DNA of 64,000 nucleotides from a virus (IMGVR_UViG_3300028026_000005:22962-86961); one strand, 5' to 3'. Counted from the first letter of the stretch, positions 10,902 to 38,706 are shown. The notes: a model not told the origin generated them from the letters alone. Translations and numbers: made by a program.

Positions 10902-10905
10902 AACA

Positions 10906-12093: not shown

Positions 12094-12101
12094 GAGATTG
12101 C

Positions 12102-12659: not shown

Positions 12660-12661
12660 GA

Positions 12662-18657: not shown

Positions 18658-18666
18658 GAGATAAAA

Positions 18667-19062: not shown

Positions 19063-19072
19063 GCGAATAGCC

Positions 19073-20731
19073 ATGAAACGCATTGTTTTACTCTTAGCGC
19101 TTCCCTATATTGCGTTTGCACAATATTCTTCATGGGCTCGTGACGCAACATTTAGAAGGTTGAGAATTTATGAGGGTATACGCCCTGTCTCTGGGAAACT
19201 TGTGTATATAGGCACCCCAATGAGACCTTTTTCTAGGGTCTGCGTTGACTCTGTCTTTGCTACATACTTAAAGGCTGGAAAACAATCAATAGATACTGTA
19301 TCAGCAGGAATTCTAAAGGTAGATACATCTATACTGTTTAATAATTTGAGTGCGTCGTTGCCAGATACGTCAGACGGAACTATGCTTTATCACCAAAGCG
19401 ATTTAATATTTTGGAAAGGAACTAACCGTATAGTTTTGACCGATGCTAGTTTTTTTGGCAGCGAGATTAACTGGAGCGAACTAGCTCAGAACGTCCAAGA
19501 CTCCATACAAGATTCCATTGCTTGGCCACGACTTACCCAAGCCGTAAAGGATTCTATACTGCGGTTCGGTTCCATCATTAACTGGGGAGAACTTGCTGGC
19601 TCTGTCCAAGACTCCATACAAGATTCCATCCCCTGGTCGCAAATTACTGCTGCTGCAAAGAACATGACAGATTCAACAATTCAAGGTCTGCCAGTCGTAG
19701 AAACAGCCCCGTCGGACAACTATATCTTAAAATATGATCAGGCATCAAGCAAGTTGCAGTGGGAGCCGGACGCTGCAGGTGCAGGCTCATCTTTAATAGC
19801 CAGTAGGGGTATTAGTCAAGACTCTTTGACCAAAGACACTATTTGTGTAATTTTAGATATATCTGACGGCTCACTTGACGACGACAATGACAGTCTAAAG
19901 GTTAAACAAGGTGGTATTGCGGCAGCCCATCTGTCTGCTGCTGTGCAAACCGATATAGATGAAGTAACATGGGGAGAGTTAGTCTCAGCTACGCAAGATT
20001 CAGTTGTAAAGTTTAGAGGAATTCAAGGGAAGGGGATTTCTGTCGACGCCGAAGACAGTATCCACCTGAACATAGATCAGTCATATGGTACGCTTGATTT
20101 ATATGATGACAGTCTCTCTGTTAAATTAGATGGCGTTGATGATAGATTTATAGACTGGGGTACAGGTTCTGATCAAGTTAACTCTGACGATATTCCTGAA
20201 GGAAGCAGCAATGCGTGGATGTCCAAAGCTTCCGTCGATCTTACTCTTTGCCCAGAGTATCCAGGTGCGTGCTTATACGCTACCGACACCACCAAAGATT
20301 CATGTGATCTTATAGCAACCAACACTGGTTCATCATCAAGTAAACGTAGAAACTATTATCAACTATGGTCAGAAAACTCCACCTTACAGCAATACGGCAT
20401 AACAATTCGATTCCAACTACCGACAGAGTTCTCTTCGTGGGATTCCGATTCAGCGATAACGATTTGGTTTATGACTGAATACGATTCTGCGGACAGCAAT
20501 AAAGTTAACGTGGCAGTTTACGAAGAAAGCGGTTCTTCTGCTGACGCGACATCTACAGGAAATCATTCTAATAATGCTTGGAGTACAATCGTGATTGATG
20601 ACTCTGCTCTTGGCGACTTAAATGCCGCCGAAGAGTACGGAGTGATTTTATTGACGCTATACAGTGTTAACGGAAGTAAAACTAATAATTTTGCCAGAGT
20701 TGGTGATATTAGACTGAGGTATAATAGATGA
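19073..20731 (+). CDS. Tail-fibre/adhesin-like protein with predicted Sec signal peptide
   Basis: MKRIVLLLALPYIAFA|Q (n/h/c regions, AxA site); fibre-like motifs YILKYDQASSKLQW, LKVKQGGI, IDWGTGSDQV; 37-aa internal repeat. Confidence 0.65.
   Translation: MKRIVLLLALPYIAFAQYSSWARDATFRRLRIYEGIRPVSGKLVYIGTPMRPFSRVCVDSVFATYLKAGKQSIDTVSAGILKVDTSILFNNLSASLPDTSDGTMLYHQSDLIFWKGTNRIVLTDASFFGSEINWSELAQNVQDSIQDSIAWPRLTQAVKDSILRFGSIINWGELAGSVQDSIQDSIPWSQITAAAKNMTDSTIQGLPVVETAPSDNYILKYDQASSKLQWEPDAAGAGSSLIASRGISQDSLTKDTICVILDISDGSLDDDNDSLKVKQGGIAAAHLSAAVQTDIDEVTWGELVSATQDSVVKFRGIQGKGISVDAEDSIHLNIDQSYGTLDLYDDSLSVKLDGVDDRFIDWGTGSDQVNSDDIPEGSSNAWMSKASVDLTLCPEYPGACLYATDTTKDSCDLIATNTGSSSSKRRNYYQLWSENSTLQQYGITIRFQLPTEFSSWDSDSAITIWFMTEYDSADSNKVNVAVYEESGSSADATSTGNHSNNAWSTIVIDDSALGDLNAAEEYGVILLTLYSVNGSKTNNFARVGDIRLRYNR
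19493..19629 (+). repeat. 26-nt identical direct repeat (19493-19518 and 19604-19629) within a 37-aa protein repeat
   Basis: gtccaagactccatacaagattccat occurs twice, 111 nt apart (VQDSIQDSI). Confidence 0.9.
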
Positions 20732-25494: not shown

Positions 25495-25946
25495 ATTCAT
25501 GGGGAAGCTTGCCATTTCGTGCAATACAGTATGTCTCTGAGCAATATAATAAGCTATATTCATTAGGGGCGTTTGATTTTACTGATACTGACAACACCTT
25601 AGAGTACCAGCTTGAAAACTTCTCTGAAATTGAGCACGTAGCTCAAGCTCAACAGTGTGTTTTGCGTGCTTACGGAGAGAATCAAAAGGTTCATCTTCTA
25701 TGGGCTATCTTCCATCTTATGTACGCAACCGGTACCGCACACAGGCATTTGCCAAGTTGTTTTCATGGTGGGGCTATAATTAGCATGTCTAAGTTAAGTG
25801 AAAATCTAATTTGCGAGGACAGTCTTGTTGTTTTCGACAAAATGATGAGCGCTGTTTTCCTTTCGCATGTCAACCCAGAAGCTGCAACTAAAGCGTTATT
25901 CTACATGCTTTGGTTTCTTCAGCTTCAATACTTGAGAGGTAAGTAA
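25491..25946 (+). CDS. Hypothetical protein
   Basis: 151-aa ORF coupled to its neighbours. Confidence 0.55.
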   Translation: MNSWGSLPFRAIQYVSEQYNKLYSLGAFDFTDTDNTLEYQLENFSEIEHVAQAQQCVLRAYGENQKVHLLWAIFHLMYATGTAHRHLPSCFHGGAIISMSKLSENLICEDSLVVFDKMMSAVFLSHVNPEAATKALFYMLWFLQLQYLRGK

Positions 25947-25948
25947 TT

Positions 25949-26707
25949 ATGCCAAATGAAACTTTTAGAGATATGGAAAAACGAGCCGCCCTTGAGGCGA
26001 TTGATTCGTTTTTAGATACAGGCTTTGAGATACCTAATCATTTAGATGAAATTCTAATTAAAGAAGCTGGGGCCACGATTGTTTCTTTACCAGTAGGAAC
26101 TAGGCAGGAGATAGAACAGTCGATAGAAACGTTTCAAGGCATCAGAGATAGCCTTAGCCCAGTCGTTCGAGCGCAGATTGGCATCAAACTAGCATCTGTT
26201 GCAAAAACAAATCACGCACTCATGGCTCCCGCCTTTGCAAAGTATGCGAATACAAAATTCTCTCCTTTTGCAGAATTAGAGTTAGAAAAACGAGCAGAGC
26301 TTGCGGTTAATTTATCTCCTGAAGCCATGTTCGCTTACCAGCGACTTCAAGAGCTGCTGCCTCGGACTAATCCAGTCAAACTTGCGATGGCAACTACCTT
26401 ATATGATGACGCTTTTGGGTTAACCGAATACTATGGTTCAAAATTAAACGAACCTGTGCCATATATGCTCTCAAAAGTTGGTGAAGAATACCCTGATGCT
26501 GAAGCGTTTATGGCTGCATCTTGGAATGTAGGTGACGATGTATTGACTAGTAATGAATTAAGGGATGCCTTGTTAACTAAAGAAGCGACCTTCCGCGAAT
26601 ATTTTGCTGATTCAATTACAGATCAGTTGCAGGAAAACCCAGAAGCTGTTTTTGATGCTATGCCCGATGGGTTCAAGTCAGTTGTTTTGAGGATTGTCAA
26701 GTCATGA
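25949..26707 (+). CDS. Putative head-associated protein (K-x-A family)
   Basis: EKRAA, IKEAG, IKLAS, EKRAE, VKLAM. Confidence 0.65.
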   Translation: MPNETFRDMEKRAALEAIDSFLDTGFEIPNHLDEILIKEAGATIVSLPVGTRQEIEQSIETFQGIRDSLSPVVRAQIGIKLASVAKTNHALMAPAFAKYANTKFSPFAELELEKRAELAVNLSPEAMFAYQRLQELLPRTNPVKLAMATTLYDDAFGLTEYYGSKLNEPVPYMLSKVGEEYPDAEAFMAASWNVGDDVLTSNELRDALLTKEATFREYFADSITDQLQENPEAVFDAMPDGFKSVVLRIVKS

Positions 26708-27933
26708 GCGATACTGAGAATAAGATTATCAAAAACATCAGTGGTGTTAACGCTAGGATTAGAAAAGTGTCCAAAGATAAGAGGACATCTGCTGACGAGT
26801 TTTTTAATTCCGTTAAGGGAAAGTCTGGTGATTTTGGTAATATTCCTCCTGGAAAAACTAAAGCTGCCGTTCCTAAAAAACCTCCCAAAAAACGCAAGGC
26901 CCCACCTAAGACTGAACCTGCCATTCCCGAAAATGAGAAGTCTGAAACTGGCATTCAGAAAAATGCGACTCAAGAAACAGCATTCCCCGCAGGCTTGAAC
27001 ATTATGGATATCCCTAAAGCCCCGCCGGTCAATCCAGATGATGCTGAATTGAAAGATCCTCCAGCAAAAGATACGGTGACATCTGACTACGCGCTTGGCA
27101 CAATAGCTGACATCTACTCATCTTCAGCTCCTGTGTTTATTGGGCCTTTGTGCAATTATCTTCTTGCGGCTATAGAAGAGGAAAATTGGGTTGAGCTTTG
27201 GCACCCCCAGGATTCCGCTTTGCAAATTCTAGGCGTCAACCCAATACAGGCGACAACAGAGCAAGTTATTGAAAAAGTAAGGGAATTAATTGCTCCATTC
27301 GGAAAACCAGAGGGGTACTGGCAAGTCAAAGACCCGATATTGTTCCTTAACAGACTTTCCTTGGCGCACGTCATGCTGGGGCTAAAGGAAGGAACAGACA
27401 TTCCATTTTTTAGAGATGTTACGGCATTTAGCATGACTGCAGCTACGTTAAATGGTAGACAATCGCTCATCACCGGACAAGTACAGGCATCGTCCCCAGA
27501 GCAATTGTTCTTCATGTTCGATCAGCTTAGGCCATCTGGTTTTGAAGCTGGTGCATGGGATTGGACAAATGTACTGTCAGATGCAGCGATCCACTACGTG
27601 GCTAAAACCTTTACTTTTCATGAAAACTTGGTTCTACCAAAGGAGCTTGCGTCGATAAACGATGTAATGGATTCATTTTTATCTCCTGACGCTAAGGCTA
27701 TTAAGCAAAAAACACTTAATGCTTTCTTGAAGTATTATAATGGAGAGCCGAATCCTAGTGAAGCTGAAGATCCTGCAGTCGCTCGCCAAATCGAAAAGGT
27801 AAACACATTAGCCGAATATGCTCAGGTTGCACGAGCTAATTTCTTTGAGCAGCAGTGGCCTCGCATAGTGGATGTGTTTCAACGATTGGGCTGTGACGTT
27901 GCTGACATCGATAAATTAGCTGAAATCCCTTGA
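26704..27933 (+). CDS. Hypothetical protein upstream of the portal
   Basis: 409-aa ORF, Lys/Pro-rich N-terminus; no recognised family. Confidence 0.65.
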   Translation: MSDTENKIIKNISGVNARIRKVSKDKRTSADEFFNSVKGKSGDFGNIPPGKTKAAVPKKPPKKRKAPPKTEPAIPENEKSETGIQKNATQETAFPAGLNIMDIPKAPPVNPDDAELKDPPAKDTVTSDYALGTIADIYSSSAPVFIGPLCNYLLAAIEEENWVELWHPQDSALQILGVNPIQATTEQVIEKVRELIAPFGKPEGYWQVKDPILFLNRLSLAHVMLGLKEGTDIPFFRDVTAFSMTAATLNGRQSLITGQVQASSPEQLFFMFDQLRPSGFEAGAWDWTNVLSDAAIHYVAKTFTFHENLVLPKELASINDVMDSFLSPDAKAIKQKTLNAFLKYYNGEPNPSEAEDPAVARQIEKVNTLAEYAQVARANFFEQQWPRIVDVFQRLGCDVADIDKLAEIP

Positions 27934-27952
27934 TGGGATACCAGGAGGAAAA

Positions 27953-29899
27953 ATGTCAGGTAGCTACTTAACCCAACGAGAGAATATAGGTCCTACGGAG
28001 AATGCCCCGCACGTACAGATCTTAAAAAGACTAATAGATGAACCGGGCCCTCAAAATTTCAGAAAACTGATGAAGACTTGCCGTGAACTGATAGTAAGTA
28101 ATGACATTATAGGCCCATCGATTTATAAAATTGCCCAATATGGGGCTACAGATATCATAATTGTTGGGGAAAATGATATTGATGATCTTTTAGACAATTA
28201 CTCTGATAAAGAGTCGGAAGAGTCTGCGGAGCAAAAACAAAAACTTAAGAAGAAGAAAAAGATCATTGAAAGATTCAAGAAAGTTCTCAAAGAACTTAAC
28301 CCGCGTAGAATGTTGTTGGAATTAGGGATTGATTTTACTGGGAGTGGAAACGCGATACTTACTCCTGCGCAAAGATTTACGCGACACCTTATATGCAAGA
28401 AAACAGGTTATGTTGCTCCAATTCAGAATTTCAAAGAATACAAATGGGATATGAACAAACAGTCCTTTGAGGCTAAGTGTCCTCAGTGCAAATCATGGCA
28501 TCGATTTGAAGTACTAGATTCTGTGGAAAAGGATAAGTTTTATTTGGTTCGGTGGGATTTGACAAAAATCGACATGGAAACCAACCCTATTACCCAGAAT
28601 ATAGTATACTACTACAATCCCCCTAGTACATTCAGAAAGATCTTAGAGGAAGGCAAGCCACACAAATTTCTCGAAGAGACTCCACTTGAAATACTTGAAA
28701 CTGCTAGTAAGAATAAAAAGTTTATACTAAAAGATGCAGCTCACTTAAAACGGGCTGCACCAAACGGCTTTCCAGGGTTTGGCGTCCCAGTTATTCTCCC
28801 CGCTATTCGCTTATTAGCCTTCCGAGAGCTCTTATTTAAGGAGCAGGAAGCGATTGCGCTCGACTACATATTGCCTTTACGTGTTTTATTCCCAACGGTA
28901 GCCGAAGGGGCTGTTGGAGACGTTACGAGCAATACGGACCTTAGACTTTGGAGGCAAATGGTAGAGAAGGGGGTTTCTCAGTGGCGGAAAGACCCTCTGT
29001 ACATTTTATTCCTCCCGTTTCCTATAGGACAAGAACAGTTTGGTGGAAACGGTAACAATATGTTCGTAACGCCTGTATTGGAATTTGTAACCAGACAGGT
29101 TATCGCAGCAATTGGGATGCCGCAGGATTTCCACTATGGAAGAGGAACCTTCTCTGGAACTTTAGTAAATATGCGACTCTTTGAAAATTTCGGCGCCAAT
29201 TTCAACAATGAAGTTGAGCGATTCCTGAATGACACTCTTGTCCCAAAGCTTTTGAGATTAATGGGCGTTAACGATCCTGACGTTGAAATAACTTTGAAAA
29301 TCAAACAACCTAAGACAGCTGACGATTTACAGAAAAAAACTATGCTAGCCAACCTCGCTGCGGCGAACAAGCTTTCTAATACGACACTTTTCAAAGAACT
29401 TGGGTTAAATTTCAAAGATGAGCAGGCGAATATTCTAAGAGAGCTGAAAGTTGGAGAGAAGATTGCTTTAGAACAAGCGAAAGCAGCTGGAAAACAACAA
29501 GCAGCAAGTGAAAGCGGGTACAAAGAGGAACAGGTTGGAGAATTAACGGAACAGATGCAAGCCTTTCCAGTGGCATTGATGTTAGCAAAGTACACTCAGC
29601 AGCTATTGGAGATGAATCGAGAAGAAGCTACTCAACAGCTTAAAGCAATAAAGGAATACGCACCTCAACTTGCGGATACTCTTGAAAACCTATGGGGTAT
29701 TGCTACCGATTCCCAGATGGGCGAACTTTTAATGAAAGCAAGGACTACTCAAGAGTTCACTCAGCTAGTGACCCAAATGAGTGGAGGTGTACCTGGTACC
29801 CAGATAGGTGCACCGCAGGCAACACCACCTAGCCAAGGGGTAAACACAAACCCTTTACCTAATCAGAGGCCTCCAAGAACGCCAAATTCAACAATATAG
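27953..29899 (+). CDS. Portal protein
   Basis: 648 aa, AGGAGG RBS; portal-like helical succession (GVPVILPAIR, LPLRVLFP, IAAIGMPQDF, LANLAAANKLSNTTLFKELGLNFKDE) with a CKK..CPQC insertion. Confidence 0.65.
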   Translation: MSGSYLTQRENIGPTENAPHVQILKRLIDEPGPQNFRKLMKTCRELIVSNDIIGPSIYKIAQYGATDIIIVGENDIDDLLDNYSDKESEESAEQKQKLKKKKKIIERFKKVLKELNPRRMLLELGIDFTGSGNAILTPAQRFTRHLICKKTGYVAPIQNFKEYKWDMNKQSFEAKCPQCKSWHRFEVLDSVEKDKFYLVRWDLTKIDMETNPITQNIVYYYNPPSTFRKILEEGKPHKFLEETPLEILETASKNKKFILKDAAHLKRAAPNGFPGFGVPVILPAIRLLAFRELLFKEQEAIALDYILPLRVLFPTVAEGAVGDVTSNTDLRLWRQMVEKGVSQWRKDPLYILFLPFPIGQEQFGGNGNNMFVTPVLEFVTRQVIAAIGMPQDFHYGRGTFSGTLVNMRLFENFGANFNNEVERFLNDTLVPKLLRLMGVNDPDVEITLKIKQPKTADDLQKKTMLANLAAANKLSNTTLFKELGLNFKDEQANILRELKVGEKIALEQAKAAGKQQAASESGYKEEQVGELTEQMQAFPVALMLAKYTQQLLEMNREEATQQLKAIKEYAPQLADTLENLWGIATDSQMGELLMKARTTQEFTQLVTQMSGGVPGTQIGAPQATPPSQGVNTNPLPNQRPPRTPNSTI

Positions 29900-29911
29900 G
29901 AGGAAGAAGAG

Positions 29912-30391
29912 TTGGCTGATAAAACAAAAGACAACAATGGAAATTTTGCGGGATCTCCTTTAGTTGAGGATGATTTCAAGCGCTTTCAAGACGTTTCTAG
30001 TCAAAACAAAAAACTTAGAAGCGTATTAAACAAGCATGATGGGCCTTCTGTCTCTAGGGTTGTGCCTGCTGGCAGCCCTGCAGGCATTACAGATATACCT
30101 GACAGGTTGAGATACCGCACAATTTCTTGGAAGATACGTAACAAGAGAGATGCCCGCAGGTTTGATAAAGAGCTTGCTGAGGTGATTAATTCTTCTAGGC
30201 ATATTGGAGAAAGTTGGAGACAGTGGCTTTTTGAAAAGGAGATTGTCAAAACGCTTTTTGGTTCATATTTGCATATTGTGATTTCTTTTTCTCAACCTGA
30301 CGAGGAAAGATTGAATCAAGACTTATGGAGAGCCAAGTTGGCACGCGATATTACTGCTGATGAAGAGCGGAAAGAGGCTACTGATGGCTAA
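29912..30391 (+). CDS. Hypothetical protein translationally coupled to the RNA polymerase gene
   Basis: AGGAGG RBS; its stop overlaps the probable RNAP start ATG at 30384. Confidence 0.6.
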   Translation: MADKTKDNNGNFAGSPLVEDDFKRFQDVSSQNKKLRSVLNKHDGPSVSRVVPAGSPAGITDIPDRLRYRTISWKIRNKRDARRFDKELAEVINSSRHIGESWRQWLFEKEIVKTLFGSYLHIVISFSQPDEERLNQDLWRAKLARDITADEERKEATDG

Positions 30392-33300
30392 GCCGTGGGA
30401 AGATGATATCTTTGGCTTCAATGACGGCTTAGTTAATAATCCAGAGTATCTTAATCATGTAACTCAGCAGATCAGTCAGGTATTTCCGGTGCAAGTAGGA
30501 GAAAGAGAACTTGTTCTTGAAAATATCGAAGTTCAATCTCCTGAAGCAGCTGAGGACAACATAGATAAGCAGAAAAAAGCTAAATTAAACGGCCAAACGT
30601 ATTCCCATAGAGTAGTGGGAACCCTTGCGTTAAAGGAGAACGGTAAGACAATCGAACGCAAGCGAACAAAATTAGTGGATGTCCCTGTGGTTACCCGCAG
30701 GGGCACAGTTCTAGTCGACGGTTCCGAATACTCTGTCCCATATCTACAGCGAACAAAGCCTGGGGTTTACACTTTGCAAAAAGATGATGGGTCTGTGGCA
30801 ACCAGGTTTAATTTAGGATGGGGAAAGAACTTTTGGATATCTACAGGCGAAAATAATATCGTCCAGTTTAACGTTGGAGCTCGCAAGATACCAGCTATGC
30901 CGGTGTTAAAAAGGCTTGGTGTTTCAGAAGGACAACTCAAAACAGTGTTCGGGAAAGCGTTGTATGATATTAACTCTCGCAAGACTGCTGGCCGTAACGG
31001 AAACTTGGCTTTTTTGCGATTTCATGACTCGTTAATAACTGATTCTCGAAAAAACGGTGAAGTTGACCCAAGGAAAGCGTATGACAACCTGATGGAGTAT
31101 TTTGCTAAAACAAAAGTGGACCCAGAAGTAACAAAAAGAACTTTAGGAGCCAAATTCAGCTCACTTTCTCCTAAAGCCTTGTTGTTAGCTATGCAAAAAT
31201 TTGTCAATGTCACCAAGGGCGCAGATAAACCTGACGGCGACACTGATCTGTCGTTTAAGTCAATACATAGCCCCGCTGAGATGCTTGGAGAGCGGCTTGG
31301 CCTGGCTTCTAAGCAAATTAAGCGCAAGTTTGCTTTTAGGTTAAAAACAAAACCTACCATTAACGAAATATTTGATAGAAAGCAATTGCAAAAGCCAATT
31401 CGCTCTTTCTTTACTCAAACTAGAATTTCAGGTCTTTCTGAAGATGTCAATCCAATTGGTTTACTGTCTTCTATGGAACGATTAACCTCATTTGGAGAGG
31501 GCGGCATTACAGATATTGACCAGATTCCGATGAGGATGAGATTGCTCGAAAAAAGCCAGTTTGGCTATGTTGACCCACTGTATACTACTGAAGGAGCTAA
31601 AAAGGTTGGAATTAATCTTCATGTTGCTCCAATTAATTTGGGCGTGAATAACGGTTCTCTGCAACTGTTGACTAGAGATAGAAAAACAGGACGAAGGACA
31701 GTATTGTCTCCGGCGGAAGCTCAGCGAGCCATCATCGCTACTAGAGAGCAGCTACGAAACGTCCCTGCTGACGGTAAAGTTTTAGCGATGATTGGCGGCA
31801 ATGTTCCAAAAAAAGTCTCAGTGAATAAGGTTACGCACACTATTCCTGCAGCTTCACTATATAACCATACTACATTATTGATTCCATTCCTGTCGCACAA
31901 CGCAGGGCAAAGGGCTATGATGGGCGACAAAATGTTAACCCAAGCAGTTCCATTAAAACACCGAGAAAAACCTTTAGTCGCCAGCGCTGCTAGTAAGGAT
32001 GTCTCTTGGGATGAAATAGTTGGGAAAAGATTTACTACGCTGAGTGGTAGATTGCCAAAAGGGGAGAAGTCCACGAAATTTAAGGTGGTTAATGTTGGAA
32101 AAAAATTAATTCAATTACAGTCAGTATCTGGAGACAAAAAGATTTTCTCTTTTCCAATCCACCGTAATTATCCGTTAGCGGAGGGTTCATTTATTGACGC
32201 AAAGCCAACTGTCTCCCCTGGAGATGTTGTAACAAAAGATGATCCGTTGATTGAGCTTAACTTTACTAAAGACGGAGGTTTGGCGCTAGGCACAAATCTG
32301 CGTACAGCGTATCTGCCTCACAAGGGCTACACTTTTAAGGATGGCGTAGTTATCTCTCAAAGTGCAGCAAAGAAGCTTACTTCAATGCATCTGCATAAAG
32401 TGAGTTTACCCCTCTCTCCGACCACTGAAATTTCTAAAAGTAAAGCTCGAGCCCTATTCCCGACCCACGCTCAGGAATTTAACGCAGAACACTTAGATGA
32501 CAATGGCGTGGTTAAGCCTGGTAGCACAATAACCCCAGGATCAATTTTAGTTGCTGCCGTTAGCCAAGGTGTACCAACCACAGAAGATATTCTTTTAGGC
32601 AACTTGAGCCATAAATTAAAGAACCCGCACAAGAACAGTACGTTGTTTTGGGACGAGGAAGTGCCTGGGAAGGTTGTTGACTTAGTAAAGAGGAAGGATA
32701 GTCTTGATATTTATATTCGGACAGAGGAGCCCGCTCAAGTTGGAGACAAGCTTTGTGTAGTAGGGGATACCTGTGTGTTAACTCCTGGTGGTTGGATTCC
32801 TATTGCTGAACTATCAACTGTCGATTCTGTAGCTATTTTAGACAAAACTCGCACAAAGGTAATATTTGAATATCCACAAAAGCGGCACAAGTATTTTAAG
32901 CCGACGATCGAAGAAGAAAGCTGGGTGCTTGACGGCGTGTATGTAAACCAGGAGTTTTCCGACAAGCATAGGATTTTTGCTGCAATAGACAAGGACGCTA
33001 CTGAAATTGATTTCGATTTACACATGATAAGCAAAGAAGACAACCCTGGCAAACTGTGGAATACAGTTTATCTTGGCGCTCTTGACTGGCCAGCCTTGCT
33101 TCAGCCGTCCGAGTTAGACAAAGATCGGCATAGATATGCCCCTAAGAGCAAATTAGAGTTTTCAGTTTTTTGGAAACTGGCACTTCTTGTTGCTATGGAT
33201 GGAGAAAGACGGGAAGATGTTCTTATTATTAAGAAGAGGCCAGAACATACCCCATGTCTCGAGAAGGGAACCACTGACTTGCTAGAAAAAGCTTTCGGAA

Positions 33301-36300
33301 ACGACTTTACGAATCATGACGACGGCTTTTACATCGACGTTAAACACCCTTGCATGACAGATATATTAAAGCACTGCGGAACTGCCCAAGGTTCAAGGTC
33401 GTTAAAGGCTCCTCAGTGGCTGCTTACTTTGCCAACAGACTTCTTGGCGGAGATGTTCGTCTGGATTGGTATCCTGAACATGGTTTCGCCAGGGAACAGT
33501 CAACACGAACTTAAAGTTAGTGAAAAAAATAAAAAGACAGCAGAATGGTTAATCGAGCTAGCTTTCAAATTAGGTTGGGCTGCTAAAATAGAAGATGGCG
33601 ATAGCGCTTTAAGGGTAGTAGTTACTCAAAACCCAGCAGATTCGGATAAATTAGCCCGTCTCCGGCAAGTTAAGGATAGTAAAGCCTTTTACGGCTTAAC
33701 TGTATCAAGCGGCATCTTTCTCACAAAAAGAAATGGGAAAATTTCATTTACTGGAAACTCTGGTAGGTATGGCAATAAATCTATTATTACAAAGATCGTT
33801 CCAGATGACAAAATACCGTACACTGTCGATGAAAATGGAGACAAGCACGCTATCGATTTATTGTTCAGCCCATTAAGTGTAATCACCCGAGGTAACCCTG
33901 GACAAATCTTCGAAACCATTGGTGGTAAGGTAGCTAAAAAATTAGGCACACAGTATCTGGCGCAGAATTTTTCCGGCAGAGACCCTATTAAGGATCTCAA
34001 GCTGGCAATGAAAGCTGCAGATGTTTCTGATAAAGAAATTGTCTACGACCCTGAGACTGGGAACAAACTAGAAAATAAAGTTTTGGTGGGCGAACAGTAT
34101 GTGCTCAAATTGAAACATCTTATTCGAAAAAAGTTTGCAGCGAGAGGTGGTAGCGCAGGATATGATGAGAACATGCAACCTCTCGGAGGTCTCTCTGGTG
34201 GGGCGCAGAGCCTTGATTATCAAAGTATAATGGCGTTATTGACTCATGGGGCTGAAAACGTTTTACAGGAAGCTATGACGCATAAAAGCGAATGGAGCCC
34301 AGAGTTTTGGCAGGCCGTGAAAACAGGGCAGCTTACTCCTCGAGGGAAGCCTACGTTTGCTTATCGTAAGTTTTTGGCTCACCTTAAAGGATTAGGGCTA
34401 ACGATACATGAACCTAAAAAGGGAGAGAAGTTCCTGCAGCCGATGACAGACTCGGAAATACTTAAATTGTCTGGTGGAGCAATAGAAGATCCTGCCGTAA
34501 TGGTTAGAGCTAAGGATTTAGCTCCTATCAAAGGAGGTCTTTTTGATAGAGCTATCACAGGAGGAACCAGAGGAGGCAATTGGTCGCACATCCCTTTAAG
34601 TGAACCGACACCAAATCCAATCTTTGAGTCCGGGATCAAACGCCTTCTCGGCTTAACGCAATCGCAATTTGATAATTTAGTAAGCGGGAAAACAAAAGTA
34701 ACAACAGATGGACAGGTAGTGCCTTCAGAGCAAGAAGGTGGAGGGATCATCGGTGGTGCAGCCATAGAATATCTGTTATCTAGAATAGATGTTGACGACG
34801 CCCTTGAGAAGACCAAGAAGCAACTGCTTTCAGCGCCGAAAAGTAAAATTGGGATACTTTCTAATAAGTTAAGGTACTTGCATGGGCTCAAGAAAGCGAA
34901 ACATAAACCTACCGATTGGATGCTGCATAATTTACCAGTATTGCCTCCAAAATTTAGGCCTGTCTACCCGTTGGAGTCAGGAGATCTTAATTCATCTCCA
35001 ATAAATTACGGATATCAGGGCGTTGGGCATATTAACAGGCAACTTCGTAACGCACCCTTGCTAGAGGCAGACCCTGAACTTGCAACTAAGCTTAGGGCTG
35101 ATTTATATAAATCGACAAAAGCCTTGATGGGGCTAGGTGAGCCTACGGTAGGGATATTAGGTTCTAAGGGTACTCAAGCGCAATGGAGGGGCATCCTTGA
35201 TATAGTCGCCGGGACATCTCCTAAAAAAGGATATTTCCAAAGCAAGCTACTAAAGAGAAGGCAAGATTTATCCGCTCGCTCAACAATAGGGTTAGAGCCA
35301 GATATTCCACTCGATCACGTCGCCCTTCCGGTGGATATGGCTAAAACGCTTTATGAGCCATTTGTGTTGCGAGATCTCCGTAAGCAAGGAGTCGGTTTCC
35401 TTGACGGCAAAAAGCTGCTTAATAGCAATGACCCGATGGCAATCCGAACATTGCAACGCATTATGGATGATCACCCAGTTATAATGAATAGGGCACCAGT
35501 TCTTTATAAGTTTGGCATCATGGCTATGAAACCCAGATTAACTACTGGAAAGCAGATAAAACTGCATCCTCTGGTAACGATTGGGTTTAATGCTGATTAT
35601 GACGGAGATACAATGGCGGTTTATGTTCCCGTTACCAAAAAGGCTATTGAAGACGCTAAGAGAATGTTGCCTAGCGCCAACCTCACAAAACCAGGCAACC
35701 CGACAAGGCCGATACTTGAGCCAGAGGAGGATTTGCTAGTAGGGCTTTATATGGGTACCAAACTAGGTAAGGATTCCGGTAAAACATTTGCTTCCCCACA
35801 AGAGGCTATAAAAGAGTTTAACAGAGGGGATTTGGAACGAGACGCTGTTATACGCCTAAAAGATGATATGGGTAAAATTAGAGAAACTACCCCGGGCCGA
35901 TTGATGCTTGAAAAAAATCTTCCGCAAGGAATTACGATTGATGGTCCACTAAACTCTAAAAGCATTAGCTCTTTAATAATGAAAATAAACCAAGCAGCTC
36001 CGAATAGTTTAGCTAAATCTTTAGATGCTATCGTAAGGCATGGGGCCGATTGGGCATACAAGACAGGATTTTCAATCGGACTTGACGATTTTGTTGTAGA
36101 CAGCAAGGTTGAAAACGCTTTCACTAAAATATTAAAGGATAAAAGCGTTACGCCAGATGAACGCAAATCTAAAGTAGAAGAGTTACTAATGGGGCATTTA
36201 CCAAGGACAAATTCTTTGTACATACAGGCTATAAGCGGCTCTAGGGGTAAGCCATCTCAGATTAGACAGCTACTTGCTGGAATAGGTGGCGTACCTGGCG

Positions 36301-37517
36301 AAAGTGGGGAAATAATCGACCTTGGGACTAACAACTTAACAAAAGGTCTAGATCCAGTTTCGCATTTTGCAGCTCAATACGGCAGCAGGCAAGCTGTGAT
36401 AGCCAAGTCTCTTCAAACTAGTATGCCAGGGGAGTCTGCAAAGGTTGCCGTAGCGGCAATGCTACCGTTTCGCATAGTCCCAGACAACAAGTCCGATGGA
36501 GACCCTGGTATCCCATTATCTATTAAAAACAATGATATTGTCGGAAGGTATCTGGCAGAGCCTGTCAATGTAGGCGGTAAGACTATACCGCAAAACACAT
36601 TAATCACACCAGATCTCGTAGAAACACTTAAGGTCGCAAAGCATAAGAGCGTCAAGGTAAGATCGCCGCTTACAGATAGAACTGTAGGAGGTGTTACGGC
36701 TAAATCTTTCGGTCTTCGTGAAGATGAGCGGATTCCGCAAGAAGGCGAGAATGTTGGTGTATTGGCTGCGCAGACAATGTCCGAGCCTTTGACTCAGATG
36801 ACACTTGCCAGTTTCCATAGCGGAGAAAAAGAGCATAAAGGATTCCCGGCCATAGCTGAACTGCTAAGCACTAGCGTAGGGTCTAAACCTGCGGAGTTGG
36901 CGCCTATCTCTGGTAAGGCTAAGGTCGTCAAGTATAGAGATGGCGGAGGGATTATCTCTGTTGGACAATACCAAGTAGATATCCCGCCAGGAACAAACAT
37001 TTTAGTTAAAGATGGACAAACAGTTTCACGTGGTGATAAGTTGTCAACTGGAAAAATAAACTTTAATCACATGATAAAACTTAAGGGAGTAATCCCTACA
37101 AGGATATACTTAGCAGACAAGCTAGCTAAGGCCTATCAGGATGCTGGCGTAAAGATCAGTAGGCGTTATCTGGAGACAATAGTTAGGCAGATGACTAATT
37201 TTGGAGAGATAGAACATCTTCCAGAAAGCTTAATGGACGAGCTCGCTCCAGCAGATGTTGTGCCGCTTACTAAATTAGAAGCTTTATCGCAAAGACATCC
37301 TGGGCTTAAGTATAAACCGCTTGTACTAGGAATGACAGCTGTCCCTACTGCATACAAAGACTGGATGGACAGGCTGGGATATAGGAACTTGAAGCACGTA
37401 GTTCAGAGAAGTGCTCTCGAGGGTTGGTCATCTAAAGTGACTGGTGCAAATCCTATCGCAGCGTTGGTTGAGGGAATACCAGCGATCTCCTCATGGAACC
37501 CTCAAGAAGACGATTAG
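30384..37517 (+). CDS. rpoBC: Fused multisubunit RNA polymerase beta-beta' with intein
   Basis: beta motifs GTVLVDGSEY, LIPFLSHNAGQRAMMG..QAVP, GYTFKDGVVIS, GDKL/SGRYGNK, YVLKLKHL, QPLGG; beta' motifs GGLFD, LPVLPPKFRP, NRAPVL, catalytic NADYDGD (35589-35609), trigger loop AAQTMSEPLTQMTLASFH; no stop between subunits (junction ~34400-34440); track start 30360. Confidence 0.95.
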   Translation: MAKPWEDDIFGFNDGLVNNPEYLNHVTQQISQVFPVQVGERELVLENIEVQSPEAAEDNIDKQKKAKLNGQTYSHRVVGTLALKENGKTIERKRTKLVDVPVVTRRGTVLVDGSEYSVPYLQRTKPGVYTLQKDDGSVATRFNLGWGKNFWISTGENNIVQFNVGARKIPAMPVLKRLGVSEGQLKTVFGKALYDINSRKTAGRNGNLAFLRFHDSLITDSRKNGEVDPRKAYDNLMEYFAKTKVDPEVTKRTLGAKFSSLSPKALLLAMQKFVNVTKGADKPDGDTDLSFKSIHSPAEMLGERLGLASKQIKRKFAFRLKTKPTINEIFDRKQLQKPIRSFFTQTRISGLSEDVNPIGLLSSMERLTSFGEGGITDIDQIPMRMRLLEKSQFGYVDPLYTTEGAKKVGINLHVAPINLGVNNGSLQLLTRDRKTGRRTVLSPAEAQRAIIATREQLRNVPADGKVLAMIGGNVPKKVSVNKVTHTIPAASLYNHTTLLIPFLSHNAGQRAMMGDKMLTQAVPLKHREKPLVASAASKDVSWDEIVGKRFTTLSGRLPKGEKSTKFKVVNVGKKLIQLQSVSGDKKIFSFPIHRNYPLAEGSFIDAKPTVSPGDVVTKDDPLIELNFTKDGGLALGTNLRTAYLPHKGYTFKDGVVISQSAAKKLTSMHLHKVSLPLSPTTEISKSKARALFPTHAQEFNAEHLDDNGVVKPGSTITPGSILVAAVSQGVPTTEDILLGNLSHKLKNPHKNSTLFWDEEVPGKVVDLVKRKDSLDIYIRTEEPAQVGDKLCVVGDTCVLTPGGWIPIAELSTVDSVAILDKTRTKVIFEYPQKRHKYFKPTIEEESWVLDGVYVNQEFSDKHRIFAAIDKDATEIDFDLHMISKEDNPGKLWNTVYLGALDWPALLQPSELDKDRHRYAPKSKLEFSVFWKLALLVAMDGERREDVLIIKKRPEHTPCLEKGTTDLLEKAFGNDFTNHDDGFYIDVKHPCMTDILKHCGTAQGSRSLKAPQWLLTLPTDFLAEMFVWIGILNMVSPGNSQHELKVSEKNKKTAEWLIELAFKLGWAAKIEDGDSALRVVVTQNPADSDKLARLRQVKDSKAFYGLTVSSGIFLTKRNGKISFTGNSGRYGNKSIITKIVPDDKIPYTVDENGDKHAIDLLFSPLSVITRGNPGQIFETIGGKVAKKLGTQYLAQNFSGRDPIKDLKLAMKAADVSDKEIVYDPETGNKLENKVLVGEQYVLKLKHLIRKKFAARGGSAGYDENMQPLGGLSGGAQSLDYQSIMALLTHGAENVLQEAMTHKSEWSPEFWQAVKTGQLTPRGKPTFAYRKFLAHLKGLGLTIHEPKKGEKFLQPMTDSEILKLSGGAIEDPAVMVRAKDLAPIKGGLFDRAITGGTRGGNWSHIPLSEPTPNPIFESGIKRLLGLTQSQFDNLVSGKTKVTTDGQVVPSEQEGGGIIGGAAIEYLLSRIDVDDALEKTKKQLLSAPKSKIGILSNKLRYLHGLKKAKHKPTDWMLHNLPVLPPKFRPVYPLESGDLNSSPINYGYQGVGHINRQLRNAPLLEADPELATKLRADLYKSTKALMGLGEPTVGILGSKGTQAQWRGILDIVAGTSPKKGYFQSKLLKRRQDLSARSTIGLEPDIPLDHVALPVDMAKTLYEPFVLRDLRKQGVGFLDGKKLLNSNDPMAIRTLQRIMDDHPVIMNRAPVLYKFGIMAMKPRLTTGKQIKLHPLVTIGFNADYDGDTMAVYVPVTKKAIEDAKRMLPSANLTKPGNPTRPILEPEEDLLVGLYMGTKLGKDSGKTFASPQEAIKEFNRGDLERDAVIRLKDDMGKIRETTPGRLMLEKNLPQGITIDGPLNSKSISSLIMKINQAAPNSLAKSLDAIVRHGADWAYKTGFSIGLDDFVVDSKVENAFTKILKDKSVTPDERKSKVEELLMGHLPRTNSLYIQAISGSRGKPSQIRQLLAGIGGVPGESGEIIDLGTNNLTKGLDPVSHFAAQYGSRQAVIAKSLQTSMPGESAKVAVAAMLPFRIVPDNKSDGDPGIPLSIKNNDIVGRYLAEPVNVGGKTIPQNTLITPDLVETLKVAKHKSVKVRSPLTDRTVGGVTAKSFGLREDERIPQEGENVGVLAAQTMSEPLTQMTLASFHSGEKEHKGFPAIAELLSTSVGSKPAELAPISGKAKVVKYRDGGGIISVGQYQVDIPPGTNILVKDGQTVSRGDKLSTGKINFNHMIKLKGVIPTRIYLADKLAKAYQDAGVKISRRYLETIVRQMTNFGEIEHLPESLMDELAPADVVPLTKLEALSQRHPGLKYKPLVLGMTAVPTAYKDWMDRLGYRNLKHVVQRSALEGWSSKVTGANPIAALVEGIPAISSWNPQEDD
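32754..33758 (+). mobile_element. Intein (335 aa) with probably degenerate LAGLIDADG endonuclease remnant
   Basis: Splits the beta motif GDKL|SGRYGNK; starts CVVGDT, ends FTGN, +1 Ser; internal LALLVAMDG and WLIELAFKLGW blocks. Confidence 0.9.
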
Positions 37518-37540
37518 CATAGGTATTGACAGGAGAAAAA

Positions 37541-37780
37541 ATGAAACTAAAGTTATGGACAAAGTGGTGGGAATGGGTTGTCGCAGGAGTTTTATGGGCT
37601 ATAGTTGGCCACTTAGTGGCTGTGTACTGCACTTTAACAGCTATAACAGTACCTACTCTCGTCATAGGTAAAATTATTGGGCTAGCTATCGTTCTTTTGG
37701 GTGCAGTTTCAATCGTCATAGGTGTTGCTTTTTTTATGTCCAGTGTTAACAAATTAGTGGAGAAGATTAACAACCAGTAA
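37541..37780 (+). CDS. Small two-helix membrane protein
   Basis: AGGAG-aaaaa-ATG at 37541 (track start 37526); two long hydrophobic segments. Confidence 0.7.
   Translation: MKLKLWTKWWEWVVAGVLWAIVGHLVAVYCTLTAITVPTLVIGKIIGLAIVLLGAVSIVIGVAFFMSSVNKLVEKINNQ
37607..37622 (+). repeat. GCCAC-N3-GTGGC copy (GGCCACTTAGTGGCTG)
   Basis: Seen directly; 15/16 identical to the reverse complement of 38707-38722. Confidence 0.8.
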
Positions 37781-37800
37781 TCAACCATCCTTTTTCGCTC

Positions 37801-37842
37801 TGCGAGGCTTGATGTTTCTCTTTTGATTCTTCGAGCCTCGCA
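37801..37842. other. 12-bp stem-loop just upstream of the HUH promoter
   Basis: TGCGAGGCTTGA pairs with TCGAGCCTCGCA (one G-T pair). Confidence 0.7.
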
Positions 37843-37850
37843 CTAATTTC

Positions 37851-37878
37851 TTGACAAAAGTAAAATTGGTGTTATAAT
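37851..37878 (+). promoter_or_regulatory. Consensus sigma70 promoter with extended -10
   Basis: TTGACA-N16-TATAAT with TGn before the -10. Confidence 0.85.
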
Positions 37879-37924
37879 AGCAGTCCGCTGTTAAGGACGC
37901 AACTAGCGGAAAGGAGAACTAAGG

Positions 37925-38371
37925 TTGAGTAGCTCGGGACAGATCAAGATAGCTCGTCAGCAATTTGCTGATTCATTTAACATTATACCATGGGAATACT
38001 TCGTAACAATAACTTATGCAAAAAAACCAACATTAGATTGGGCTGACAACAAAGGCTGGCCTATTTTTTGCAACATTATTAGAGATCAACTCCCGCACAG
38101 GCATAGATTTGACTTTATTCGCGCAACCGAGCAGCACAAAAGCGGATACCCGCACCATCACGCCTTAATAACCGGCGTTGGACCCACCCTAAATTGTGAC
38201 AAAATACAAAGGAAATGCTTTACCGCCTTAGGGCGTATGAATATCCAACCATTTATCCTCAACGGAGGAGCCCTCAGGTATTGTTTTAAGCGTTTAGGGG
38301 AAGGTTCCTACTTAACAGTATCAAGATCTATCAAAAAGCGCATCGTAGGTAGCCCTCAAGCTGGCAGCTAA
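37925..38371 (+). CDS. Minimal HUH endonuclease (rolling-circle Rep-like)
   Basis: Motif I FVTITY, motif II EQHKSGYPHHHALI, motif III YCFK (YxxK); AAGGAG RBS; no helicase domain. Confidence 0.8.
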   Translation: MSSSGQIKIARQQFADSFNIIPWEYFVTITYAKKPTLDWADNKGWPIFCNIIRDQLPHRHRFDFIRATEQHKSGYPHHHALITGVGPTLNCDKIQRKCFTALGRMNIQPFILNGGALRYCFKRLGEGSYLTVSRSIKKRIVGSPQAGS

Positions 38372-38706
38372 AGTGCATTACTGGCTTTCGTAGTCACGGT
38401 AATCTTTGCGCGCCCAATAATAGAAGTTTAGCCAAAAGCTTCTTGCGGTCACGAAAACCTGTAGCAAGGGATTGCTCTTGTATGGGATAGAACTATCTAA
38501 AAATTTTTAAGTTCAGCTTTTCAACAATTTATTTCTTTTTGAGATTCAACTTTTCAATTTCAGTTATTAATTTAGTTTTCTAGTTTTATCGTGATTGCAT
38601 CCTTATTTTTTAGCCATCGCATTTCAGCGTTCCATAGTGTCTCTATATCATTTCCCAATAGATGTTATTCGTCCGTCCCGCTAGGCTCGCTTTTCTTGGT
38701 AAAATT

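What the first reader, a model, noticed from the sequence alone, without database searches (positions are those of the whole stretch)
30384..37517. Single-chain beta-beta' RNA polymerase embedded in the virion-morphogenesis region, next to the portal
Seen: one uninterrupted ORF carries all core beta and beta' motifs including the catalytic NADYDGD. After removing the intein each half is only about 1,000 aa. The gene sits two genes after the portal, and no alpha, omega or sigma homologue is recognisable in the window. Established: phiKZ-like phages split beta/beta' into several genes; beta-beta' fusion is known in Helicobacter and Wolbachia; tailed phages with deep-branching multisubunit RNAPs have been described from metagenomes (mReC, Weinheimer and Aylward 2020). 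Inference: this is a compact, possibly alpha-independent enzyme that may be packaged in the virion or dedicated to late transcription, with unknown promoter recognition.
Basis: partly seen in the sequence, partly recalled or inferred. Interest (0 to 1): 0.8.

Follow-up and report, generated by a model that had tools for sequence, protein, structure and literature searches.

The report
Single-chain phage RNA polymerase with intein
A phage from hydrothermal-vent and epibiont metagenomes encodes both large subunits of a bacterial-type RNA polymerase as one protein, interrupted by an intein and placed just behind the portal gene. It is a divergent, cysteine-free member of a very large phage family whose single-chain design I found described in no paper I could search.

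Summary
Window 30384-37517 is one open frame: beta, a 335-residue intein in the GDK..GNK active-site motif, then beta' joined without a linker at about nt 34416, with NADYDGD intact. The 648-residue gene two genes upstream is a portal, shown by fold and by its homologues.

The gene is neither a host capture nor an assembly artefact. In separate beta and beta' trees it groups (100) with phage proteins, apart from all bacterial sequences sampled. At least 535 IMG/VR contigs carry relatives, and 70 of 71 untruncated loci among the best 80 are single frames of 2,000 residues or more. Portal, RNAP and terminase keep the same order.

Cultured cousins exist: Salmonella phage Arash and Vibrio phage D69. 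Arash gp206 crosses the same beta/beta' junction and gave the highest spectrum count in purified particles, which also contained a sigma factor.

Complete relatives encode sigma70-family factors, no alpha, no omega and only one RNAP. Promoter recognition is therefore probably sigma-based. Independence from alpha is possible but untested.

Special to this copy: it is the most divergent member, and all four cysteines of the second beta' zinc site are replaced, so the spliced enzyme has no cysteine.

This scan already reported the fused family on three other genomes.

The parts
27953..29899 (+). Portal protein gene (648 aa), first gene of the conserved portal-RNAP block
   Evidence: Homologues hit portal PHROGs (19 of 35). 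The AF2 model has pLDDT 73 and all 50 best PDB fold matches are portals. BLASTP to Arash portal gp204 gives E 2e-47. A homologue lies upstream of the RNAP on the same strand in 48 of 68 informative loci.
29912..30391 (+). 159-aa ORF of unknown function between portal and RNAP; its stop overlaps the RNAP start
   Evidence: No Pfam or PHROG match and no homologue in the 80 related loci. Arash has an unrelated 92-aa gene (gp205) at this position.
30384..37517 (+). Single-chain beta-beta' RNA polymerase gene with intein (2377 aa from ATG 30384; the frame is open from 30360)
30384..32753 (+). Beta, N-terminal extein (residues 9-798 of the 2385-aa frame); includes the flap and flap-tip helix (about 32559-32636) and ends in GDKL
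   Evidence: Alignment to Salmonella and Staphylococcus beta; Pfam Rpb2_3 and Rpb2_6.
32754..33758 (+). Intein (335 aa): Cys1, block-B His, terminal Gly-Asn, Ser+1. It has one LAGLIDADG-like motif; the second is degenerate
   Evidence: It is allelic to inteins at the same site in 8 of 119 relatives. No Pfam hit even at E<=1. It holds all five cysteines of the protein.
33759..34415 (+). Beta, C-terminal extein (residues 1134-1352): SGRYGNK motif and the beta C-terminal clamp part
   Evidence: Pfam Rpb2_6 at residues 1134-1277; alignment.
34416..37514 (+). Beta' part (residues 1353-2385), joined to beta without a linker. The Zn1 ribbon is deleted. Lid, clamp helices (about 34992-35135), rudder, bridge helix, trigger loop (no SI3) and jaw are present
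   Evidence: PDB beta' chains match at E 4e-95.
35589..35609 (+). Catalytic NADYDGD loop
   Evidence: aligned to NADFDGD of Salmonella beta'.
36474..36719 (+). Region equivalent to the second beta' zinc site (E. coli C814, C888, C895, C898); all four cysteines are replaced here
   Evidence: S/D/T/S in the window, against C/C/C/C in 25 of 25 sampled relatives; these four columns are Cys in at least 95% of the other 119 members.

Best explanation
The gene encodes the catalytic core of a bacterial-type multisubunit RNA polymerase as one chain, beta followed directly by beta'. It belongs to a large lineage of contractile-tailed phages of about 160-215 kb that includes the cultured Salmonella phage Arash and Vibrio phage D69.

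Shown:
- The fusion, its junction and the catalytic motifs.
- The intein and its insertion site.
- Grouping of both halves with the phage family, apart from the sampled bacteria.
- The conserved portal-RNAP-terminase order.
- One RNAP gene per complete relative.
- Sigma70-family genes, but no alpha or omega genes, in complete relatives.

Inferred:
- The precursor is made late, together with the portal. The genes abut or overlap and no promoter-like site stands out between them.
- The intein splices out and restores GDKL-SGRYGNK.
- The single chain folds into a two-barrel core without a phage alpha or omega.
- The core binds a phage sigma factor through the retained beta flap tip and beta' clamp helices.
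- Part of the enzyme is packaged into the capsid and starts transcription in the next host, as the Arash particle proteome suggests.

This copy is the most divergent member of the family. It has lost the second zinc site as well as the first, so the mature enzyme has no cysteine.
For: Identity and integrity:
- Pfam beta and beta' domains are in order, and PDB beta' chains match at E 4e-95.
- 151 of 174 family-invariant columns are kept.
- NADYDGD, both Lys of GDK..GNK, the bridge helix and the trigger-loop His are present.

Family:
- All 120 best hits are fused proteins of 2,002-3,719 aa.
- At least 535 IMG/VR contigs carry relatives. 70 of 71 untruncated loci have a frame of 2,000 aa or more.
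- 2,321 clusters match at E<=1e-30 in 1.84 billion representatives. That count probably includes cellular beta'.

Trees:
- Beta': 20 bacteria on one side (100); window, fused proteins, P0122 and P0123 on the other (100).
- Beta: the same split, with Arash and D69 on the phage side.

Cultured cousins:
- Arash gp206 aligns to window residues 24-799 and 1134-1833, so it crosses the same junction. gp216 aligns to residues 1844-2372.
- In particle mass spectrometry gp206 gave 3,516 spectra (the highest count), gp216 1,210 and sigma Gp10 467.

Synteny.

Sigma, alpha, omega. A stand-alone beta' relative is followed directly by a sigma70 gene.

Intein: splicing residues and allelic relatives.
Against: - No expression, splicing or proteome data exist for this phage. 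No RNA run holds the sequence.
- The Arash authors themselves note that abundant enzymes may simply co-purify with particles.
- The record is only about 53% complete, so its sigma genes could not be confirmed.
- The one sigma candidate, a 245-aa ORF at G000 87155-87889 just outside the window, rests on language-model and predicted-structure likeness only. Pfam region 4 scores E 0.064. It has no homologue, is not hit by an HMM of the relatives' sigmas, and gave a poor fold.
- The complex prediction gave no verdict.
- This copy sits on a long branch and has lost residues that are invariant elsewhere, including the second zinc site, which could mean relaxed constraint.
- The intein ends in Gly-Asn rather than His-Asn, although its allelic relatives do so too.
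- A perfect sigma70 consensus promoter at 37851-37878 suggests that the host polymerase also reads part of this genome.
Confidence: 0.7

Rival explanations
1. The phage chain supplies only beta-beta'. It assembles with the host's alpha dimer and omega, and possibly a host sigma, into a hybrid enzyme, so it is not alpha-independent.
For: No alpha or omega gene occurs in any complete relative, which fits borrowing as well as independence. Most of the beta region aligned to E. coli 1080-1342 and the beta' region aligned to 1216-1320 is retained. From my own knowledge, these regions include alpha-contacting surfaces in bacterial RNAP, and the cellular fused enzymes of Helicobacter still use alpha.
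Against: The enzyme is only 25-32% identical to any bacterial beta or beta', so host-specific interfaces are unlikely to be conserved across the many hosts of this family. The beta' C-terminal region that binds omega in E. coli is shortened (50 of 88 positions aligned). No alpha is listed among the enzymes the Arash paper names from particles, but I did not read its whole table.
Confidence: 0.2
2. It is a non-virion polymerase dedicated to middle or late genes, like phiKZ or AR9 nvRNAP. Its place next to the portal is only a matter of gene order.
For: The gene sits in a late-looking operon. Relatives carry sigma factors, which could serve a temporal switch. A perfect host-type promoter exists nearby, so early genes may be read by the host enzyme.
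Against: Complete relatives have a single RNAP gene. In Arash that protein gave the highest spectrum count in particle preparations, together with a sigma. The two roles do not exclude each other.
Confidence: 0.25
3. Recent capture of host rpoB-rpoC, contamination, or an assembly or frameshift artefact that falsely joins two genes.
For: None found. The idea rests only on the fact that bacterial rpoB and rpoC are adjacent.
Against: - Both halves fall outside all sampled bacteria with full support.
- Bacterial beta' from many phyla score alike, 320-343 bits.
- The same junction, without a linker, is present in all 25 sampled relatives and in Arash gp206.
- 70 of 71 related loci are single frames.
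- An independent assembly is identical.
- Phage genes flank the gene: portal, protease, capsid, terminase.
Confidence: 0.01
4. This copy is decaying. The long branch, the lost zinc site, the degenerate homing endonuclease and the substitutions at invariant positions could mean an inactive or re-purposed protein.
For: 23 of 174 family-invariant columns are changed, against at most 13 in any other member. All four cysteines of the second zinc site are gone. The end branches are long, 1.5-1.6.
Against: A 7.1-kb frame without a stop is not kept by chance. All catalytic motifs and the intein splicing residues are intact. Near-identical fragments occur in three other metagenomes from separate studies, so the phage is circulating.
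Confidence: 0.07

Closest known systems
RNA polymerase of Salmonella phage Arash (gp206 + gp216; OQ632216, PMC10585845) and of Vibrio phages D69/D181/D148
   Same: - Same lineage in the beta tree.
- gp206 crosses the same linker-free beta/beta' junction.
- Same order: portal, small gene, RNAP.
- One RNAP per genome.
- No alpha-like RNA_pol_L (PF01193) domain in Arash.
- A sigma factor is encoded.
   Different: There the beta' is split after about residue 1835 (window numbering) into a second gene, 4.8 kb away in Arash and 0.6 kb away in D69. Those genes have no intein at the GDK site and keep the four cysteines of the second zinc site. They are only 25-35% identical to the window protein. The paper and the record label gp206 simply 'beta'.
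mReC, multisubunit-RNAP-encoding Caudovirales (Weinheimer and Aylward 2020, PMC7481178)
   Same: Tailed phages from metagenomes with a bacterial-like but separately branching beta/beta'. The subunits are compact, with beta about 1,000 aa and beta' about 900-1,000 aa in one of their two size classes.
   Different: Every mReC row in the two parts of the table that I read lists two different proteins, none fused, and several contigs carry two RNAP sets. Their capsid and terminase families (PF07068, PF03237) differ from the window's (phrog_2522; PF05876/phrog_675). I had no mReC sequences, so the relation (same clade, sister or separate) is untested.
Cellular beta-beta' fusions (RpoBC of Helicobacter and Wolbachia; from my own knowledge, not tested here)
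   Same: Same order, with the beta C-terminus joined to the beta' N-terminus in one polypeptide.
   Different: Those are ordinary cellular enzymes with alpha, omega, both zinc sites and lineage-specific insertions, and they nest in their bacterial clades. Here the chain is about 700 residues shorter than Salmonella beta plus beta' (2,050 against 2,749), has no zinc site, and groups apart from the sampled bacteria.
phiKZ/AR9 virion and non-virion RNAPs (PMC7598289, PMC7824862)
   Same: Phage-encoded two-barrel RNAPs without alpha or omega; one set is packaged in the virion.
   Different: In those phages beta and beta' are split into four or five polypeptides. They have two enzymes per genome, no sigma homologue (gp68/gp226 takes that role), and are far more divergent from cellular enzymes.
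Single-chain virion RNAPs of crAss-like phages and the tape-measure-fused RNAP of Thermus phage P23-45 (PMC7481178 text; bioRxiv 10.1101/2022.12.01.518664)
   Same: One polypeptide carries both barrels; it is encoded among virion genes and delivered with the DNA.
   Different: Those are highly diverged, YonO/RdRp-like enzymes with no detectable COG0085 or COG0086 similarity. The window protein aligns along nearly its whole length with bacterial beta and beta'.

Membership tests
Bacterial-type multisubunit RNAP beta/beta' core | Beta and beta' domain set with the catalytic NADFDGD loop and the beta GDK..GNK lysines | tested here: met
   Pfam Rpb2_6, Rpb1_2 and Rpb1_5 score above their cut-offs. 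PDB bacterial beta' matches at E 4e-95. Motifs.
Bacterial-type multisubunit RNAP beta/beta' core | Two beta' zinc sites (E. coli C70/72/85/88 and C814/888/895/898) | tested here: not met
   The first zinc ribbon is deleted, and the second site reads S/D/T/S. The extein has no cysteine.
Fused phage beta-beta' lineage (Arash/D69-like and uncultured relatives) | One frame across a linker-free beta/beta' junction | tested here: met
   Junction at residue 1352/1353, aligned with 25 of 25 relatives and with Arash gp206.
Fused phage beta-beta' lineage (Arash/D69-like and uncultured relatives) | Both halves group with the family, apart from bacteria | tested here: met
   SH-aLRT 100 for the family and 100 for the bacteria in the beta' tree and the beta tree. 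These were quick searches, the window sits on a long branch, and there was no archaeal outgroup.
Fused phage beta-beta' lineage (Arash/D69-like and uncultured relatives) | Gene placed downstream of the portal gene on the same strand | tested here: met
   Window: portal, 159-aa ORF, RNAP. The same holds in 48 of 68 informative loci and in Arash.
Fused phage beta-beta' lineage (Arash/D69-like and uncultured relatives) | Exactly four cysteines forming the second zinc site | tested here: not met
   Kept in 25 of 25 sampled members and in at least 95% of the other 119, but lost in the window.
mReC (Weinheimer and Aylward 2020) | Membership of their RNAP clade; separate beta and beta' genes | tested here: inconclusive
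   No mReC sequence was available for a tree. Their table lists only two-gene forms, whereas the window gene is fused.
Intein (class 1, with LAGLIDADG endonuclease) | Cys/Ser1, block-B His, C-terminal Asn, nucleophile at +1, insertion in a conserved host motif | tested here: met
   C799, SDKH block, N1133 and S1134, inserted inside GDKL|SGRYGNK. Weak but significant similarity to inteins at the same site (E 4e-9).
Intein (class 1, with LAGLIDADG endonuclease) | Penultimate His; two intact LAGLIDADG motifs; match to intein or endonuclease profiles | tested here: not met
   The penultimate residue is Gly, as in most of its allelic relatives. The second motif has lost its Asp. There is no Pfam hit at E<=1.
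Virion-packaged RNA polymerase | Protein present in purified particles and active on injection | not testable with these tools
   Only indirect evidence: the Arash particle proteome and conserved linkage to the portal gene.
Sigma70 family (for the 245-aa ORF at G000 87155-87889, outside the window) | Regions 2 and 4 recognised by curated profiles | tested here: inconclusive
   Pfam region 4 scores E 0.064, below the cut-off, and region 2 is not found. Atlas features score 0.96-0.97, and predicted-structure TM-scores reach 0.58 to sigma factors. It has no homologues, scores E 1.3 against an HMM of the relatives' sigmas, and its AF2 model has pLDDT 47.

The most novel reading that the evidence does not exclude
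The spliced protein is a self-sufficient, metal-cluster-free, cysteine-free single-chain RNA polymerase core. It needs no alpha, omega or zinc for folding, is loaded into the capsid with a phage sigma factor, and performs all phage transcription. That would make it a minimal, single-gene version of the bacterial enzyme. It would also be a natural test of whether joining beta to beta' can replace both the alpha scaffold and the zinc site that cellular beta' needs for assembly.
Probability: 0.3. Interest if true: 0.8.

Novelty: new variant of a known kind. Interest (0 to 1): 0.6.

Why it matters
Bacterial RNA polymerase is assembled stepwise on an alpha dimer. From my own knowledge of published work on E. 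coli, the second beta' zinc site is needed for that assembly.

A natural lineage with hundreds to thousands of members makes beta and beta' as one chain and has no alpha or omega gene. It offers a one-gene, bacterial-type, probably sigma-directed polymerase for structural work, for in vitro transcription, and for asking what alpha, omega and zinc are really needed for.

The window's copy goes furthest, having neither zinc site and no cysteine.

The conserved position behind the portal gene and the Arash particle proteome suggest a third, independent way of packaging a cellular-type polymerase in phages, beside phiKZ-like and crAss-like phages.

The family is also a dense intein landscape, with at least nine insertion sites.

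The papers I could search do not describe the single-chain form. The cultured examples are annotated as plain 'beta' and 'beta-prime'.

Tried and rejected
- Complex prediction of the sigma-like ORF with beta' residues 1463-1800 scored 0.05. That is no verdict, and not evidence either way.
- An AlphaFold model of the sigma-like ORF from a single sequence had pLDDT 47, too poor for a fold search.
- A homologue search for that ORF found only itself. An HMM built from six relatives' sigma factors did not pick it up (E 1.3), and it has no match in relatives' genomes.
- A single-protein scan of IMG/VR with the beta' part found nothing. The alignment-based scan was needed.
- PHROG and Pfam searches of eight neighbouring genes returned nothing for the portal or the flanking ORFs. 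The portal was identified only through its homologues and its fold.
- Pfam on the intein alone gave no hit.
- The promoter and terminator scan of 25500-38600 found no more sites than shuffled sequence gives. Only the perfect consensus promoter before the HUH gene stands out.
- Literature searches for a description of the fused phage enzyme found none. Absence from this library does not prove absence from the literature.
- The match in contig length (180,819 bp) between P0014 and the Arash genome is a coincidence. P0014 is only 34% identical to Arash.
Full report
OBSERVATION

A single frame runs from 30360 to 37517 on the + strand, 2385 codons. The likely start is the second ATG, at 30384. It has AAGAGG six bases upstream and overlaps the stop of the preceding 159-aa ORF. 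The database copy of the protein has 2377 residues.

Pfam finds beta domains and then beta' domains in one chain: Rpb2_6 at E 6e-43, Rpb1_2 at 2e-24, Rpb1_5 at 7e-19, and weaker Rpb2_3 and Rpb1_1, 3 and 4. Solved bacterial beta' chains match at E 4e-95. NADYDGD lies at residues 1744-1750.

Residues 799-1133 are an intein. It starts with Cys, ends in Gly-Asn, and is followed by Ser. It splits the beta active-site motif into GDKL and SGRYGNK. Without it, beta is about 1,010 residues and beta' about 1,033.

Alignment with Salmonella and Staphylococcus subunits and 25 relatives puts the junction at residue 1352/1353, about nt 34416. There is no linker, and about a dozen N-terminal beta' residues are missing.

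SURROUNDINGS

The 648-residue gene at 27953-29899 had no Pfam or PHROG hit of its own. I identified it as a portal from three results:
- 19 of 35 homologues hit portal PHROGs.
- The AlphaFold model built on their alignment has pLDDT 73, and its 50 best PDB matches are all portal proteins.
- It matches Arash portal gp204 at E 2e-47.

The order is portal, 159-aa ORF, RNAP. The genes abut or overlap, and no promoter-like site stands out between them.

The rest of the window holds a baseplate gene, an amidase, a prohead protease, the major capsid protein and, on the other strand, the large terminase.

The record is an IMG/VR contig of 98,576 bp, estimated 53% complete.

IS THE FUSION REAL?

A Logan assembly of the probable source run covers 29800-37700 with no difference and no gap. 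Fragments at or near 100% identity occur in three other metagenomes from separate studies, one epibiont and two hydrothermal-vent. The same junction is also seen throughout the family, as described next.

THE FAMILY

- The 120 best hits in 5.8 billion proteins are all fused beta-beta' proteins. They are 2,002-2,120 aa without inserts and up to 3,719 aa with inteins. Identity is 30-43%, and they lie on contigs of up to about 200 kb.
- An alignment-based scan of IMG/VR found at least 535 contigs. Among the best 80, 70 of 71 untruncated loci have one frame of 2,000 residues or more over the match.
- A profile search of 1.84 billion cluster representatives gave 2,321 clusters at E<=1e-30. That count probably includes cellular beta'. 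Most of the best 150 are 2,000 residues or longer, with the beta' match 1,100-1,900 residues in.
- A few true stand-alone beta' genes exist inside the lineage. P0122 has its beta gene 4.3 kb upstream. P0283 is followed directly by a sigma70 gene.

TREES

Beta' tree (54 rows, 936 columns, LG+C20): the 20 bacterial sequences form one side of a branch (SH-aLRT 100). The window, 28 fused proteins, P0122 and P0123 form the other (100). The window is sister to all the rest (93), on a long branch of 1.5.

Beta tree (40 rows): the same split, 100 and 100, with Arash and D69 on the phage side.

Bacterial beta' from Betaproteobacteria, Clostridia, Fusobacteria and CPR all score alike against the window, 320-343 bits at 28-32% identity.

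Limits of these trees: they were quick searches, they have no archaeal outgroup, and the window is a long branch. However, the shared junction, the shared deletion of the first zinc ribbon and the shared synteny support family membership independently.

CULTURED COUSINS

Earlier notes of this scan pointed to Salmonella phage Arash, and I checked it myself.

- Gene order in Arash: portal gp204, gp205 (92 aa), gp206 (1525 aa, annotated 'beta'), nine small genes, gp216 (606 aa, which the paper calls beta'), then a helicase. A sigma gene lies nearby.
- gp206 aligns to window residues 24-799 and 1134-1833, so it covers beta plus the first third of beta', including the catalytic loop. gp216 aligns to residues 1844-2372.
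- Vibrio phage D69 is built the same way, with chains of 1527 and 609 aa.
- In mass spectrometry of Arash particles, gp206 gave the most spectra (3,516), gp216 gave 1,210 and the sigma factor Gp10 gave 467. The authors note that abundant enzymes might co-purify.

SYNTENY

A homologue of the window's portal lies upstream of the RNAP, on the same strand, in 48 of 68 loci with enough upstream sequence. The median distance is 1.8 kb. A terminase homologue lies 4.9-7.5 kb downstream, on the same strand, in 28 loci. In the window the terminase is instead 18 kb away on the other strand.

PARTNERS

I searched four complete or near-complete relatives (189-215 kb, one with terminal repeats).
- None has alpha (PF01000) or omega (PF01192). 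The alpha-like RNA_pol_L domain (PF01193) is also absent from three of these four relatives (G002-G004) and from Arash, apart from one sub-threshold hit in a broken frame.
- Each relative, and Arash, has a single beta' catalytic locus.
- Two relatives encode a full sigma70-family protein of 266-272 aa with regions 1.2, 2, 3 and 4, plus a second protein of 236-243 aa with regions 3 and 4. A third relative has only weak hits.

In the window protein the beta flap tip helix and the beta' clamp helices are retained with their hydrophobic pattern. These are the two sigma docking sites of bacterial RNAP. A sigma-directed enzyme is therefore the most economical reading.

In this genome no sigma region 2 was found. 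A 245-aa ORF just beyond the right end of the window (G000 87155-87889) is a candidate only:
- Pfam region 4 scores E 0.064.
- ESM Atlas features score 0.96-0.97, with sigma70 families among the neighbours, and predicted-structure TM-scores reach 0.58 to sigma factors.
- It has no homologue anywhere and no hit from an HMM of the relatives' sigmas.
- Its AF2 model is poor, and the complex prediction gave no verdict.

WHAT IS COMPACT, AND WHAT IS SPECIAL HERE

Compared with E. coli-type subunits, the chain lacks SI1, SI2, SI3 and part of the lobe, and it has a shortened beta' C-terminus. It keeps the fork loop, flap, lid, rudder, bridge helix, trigger loop and jaw.

The N-terminal beta' zinc ribbon is deleted in all 25 sampled relatives as well. 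Those relatives usually have exactly four cysteines, the ligands of the second zinc site. These four columns are Cys in at least 95% of the other 119 aligned members.

In the window all four are replaced, and the only five cysteines of the 2385-residue product lie in the intein. The window keeps 151 of 174 near-invariant family columns. Every other member keeps at least 161.

THE INTEIN

Eight of the 119 relatives carry an intein at the same GDKL|S/T site, and most also end in Gly-Asn or Cys-Asn. The window's intein is weakly but significantly similar to them (E 4e-9).

It is about 20 residues shorter than the inteins at this site in its relatives. It has kept the first LAGLIDADG-like motif and lost the acidic residue of the second, so the homing endonuclease is probably dead while the splicing residues are intact. 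No Pfam model recognises it.

The family alignment shows at least nine insertion sites. The most used, in 20 of 120 sequences, lies directly after NADFDGD.

COMPARISON WITH THE LITERATURE

The mReC paper describes 97 phage contigs with a separately branching RNAP. Its table, in the two parts I read, lists two different proteins for beta and beta' in every row. Several contigs carry two RNAP sets. The text mentions fusion only for crAss-like phages.

Reviews of jumbo-phage RNAPs do not mention this form. I found no paper that describes the single-chain enzyme.

This scan reported the same family on three other genomes.

VERDICT

The gene is a real, probably functional, single-chain beta-beta' polymerase of a large phage lineage.

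'Unknown promoter recognition' should be replaced by 'probably phage sigma70-type factors'. Independence from alpha remains open.

The copy is notable within its family for having no zinc site and no cysteine.

Noticed in passing
G000:C1:87155-87889 (+), about 200 bp beyond the right end of the window (would be window 64194-64928): An orphan 245-aa ORF with a sigma region-4-like helix-turn-helix near its C-terminus. ESM Atlas features and predicted structure point to sigma70-family factors, but every sequence-based test was weak or negative.
   Followed up: yes
window 37851-37878 and 37925-38371: A perfect TTGACA-16-TATAAT promoter with a TG extension lies directly before a 148-aa HUH/Rep-like ORF (Pfam REP_ORF2-G2P, E 1e-7), just downstream of the RNAP gene. 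It suggests that the host polymerase reads at least this gene.
   Followed up: partly
window 55886-57580 (-): The large terminase (phrog_675 E 4e-50; GpA_ATPase) lies 18 kb from the RNAP on the opposite strand. In 28 related loci it lies 4.9-7.5 kb downstream on the same strand, so this phage's head module has been rearranged.
   Followed up: partly
family alignment of 120 fused proteins (P0001-P0121): The family is an intein hot spot, with at least nine large-insert sites. One lies directly after NADFDGD in 20 of 120 sequences. Some proteins reach 3,000-4,700 aa with several inserts.
   Followed up: partly
L102 (Salmonella phage Arash, OQ632216) 8944-13521 and 18292-20112; L002 (Vibrio phage D69): The Arash gene annotated 'RNA polymerase subunit beta' (gp206) in fact spans beta plus the first third of beta', including the catalytic loop. 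gp216 is only the remaining two-thirds of beta'. The D69 genes are annotated as hypothetical proteins.
   Followed up: yes
L110 8001-11971: A true stand-alone beta' (977 aa) of this lineage is followed at a 3-bp distance by a 344-aa sigma70 gene (regions 2 and 4). This is direct gene linkage of polymerase and sigma in a relative.
   Followed up: no
mReC Supplementary Data 2 (PMC7481178): Several published mReC contigs carry two distinct beta/beta' pairs (about 1,365+1,005 aa and about 1,005+905 aa), which recalls the virion and non-virion pairs of phiKZ-like phages. The fused lineage studied here has only one polymerase per genome.
   Followed up: no
window 29800-37700: Fragments at or near 100% identity occur in one further epibiont metagenome and two hydrothermal-vent metagenomes, all from different studies. 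The phage is therefore spread across samples and is not a one-off assembly.
   Followed up: partly
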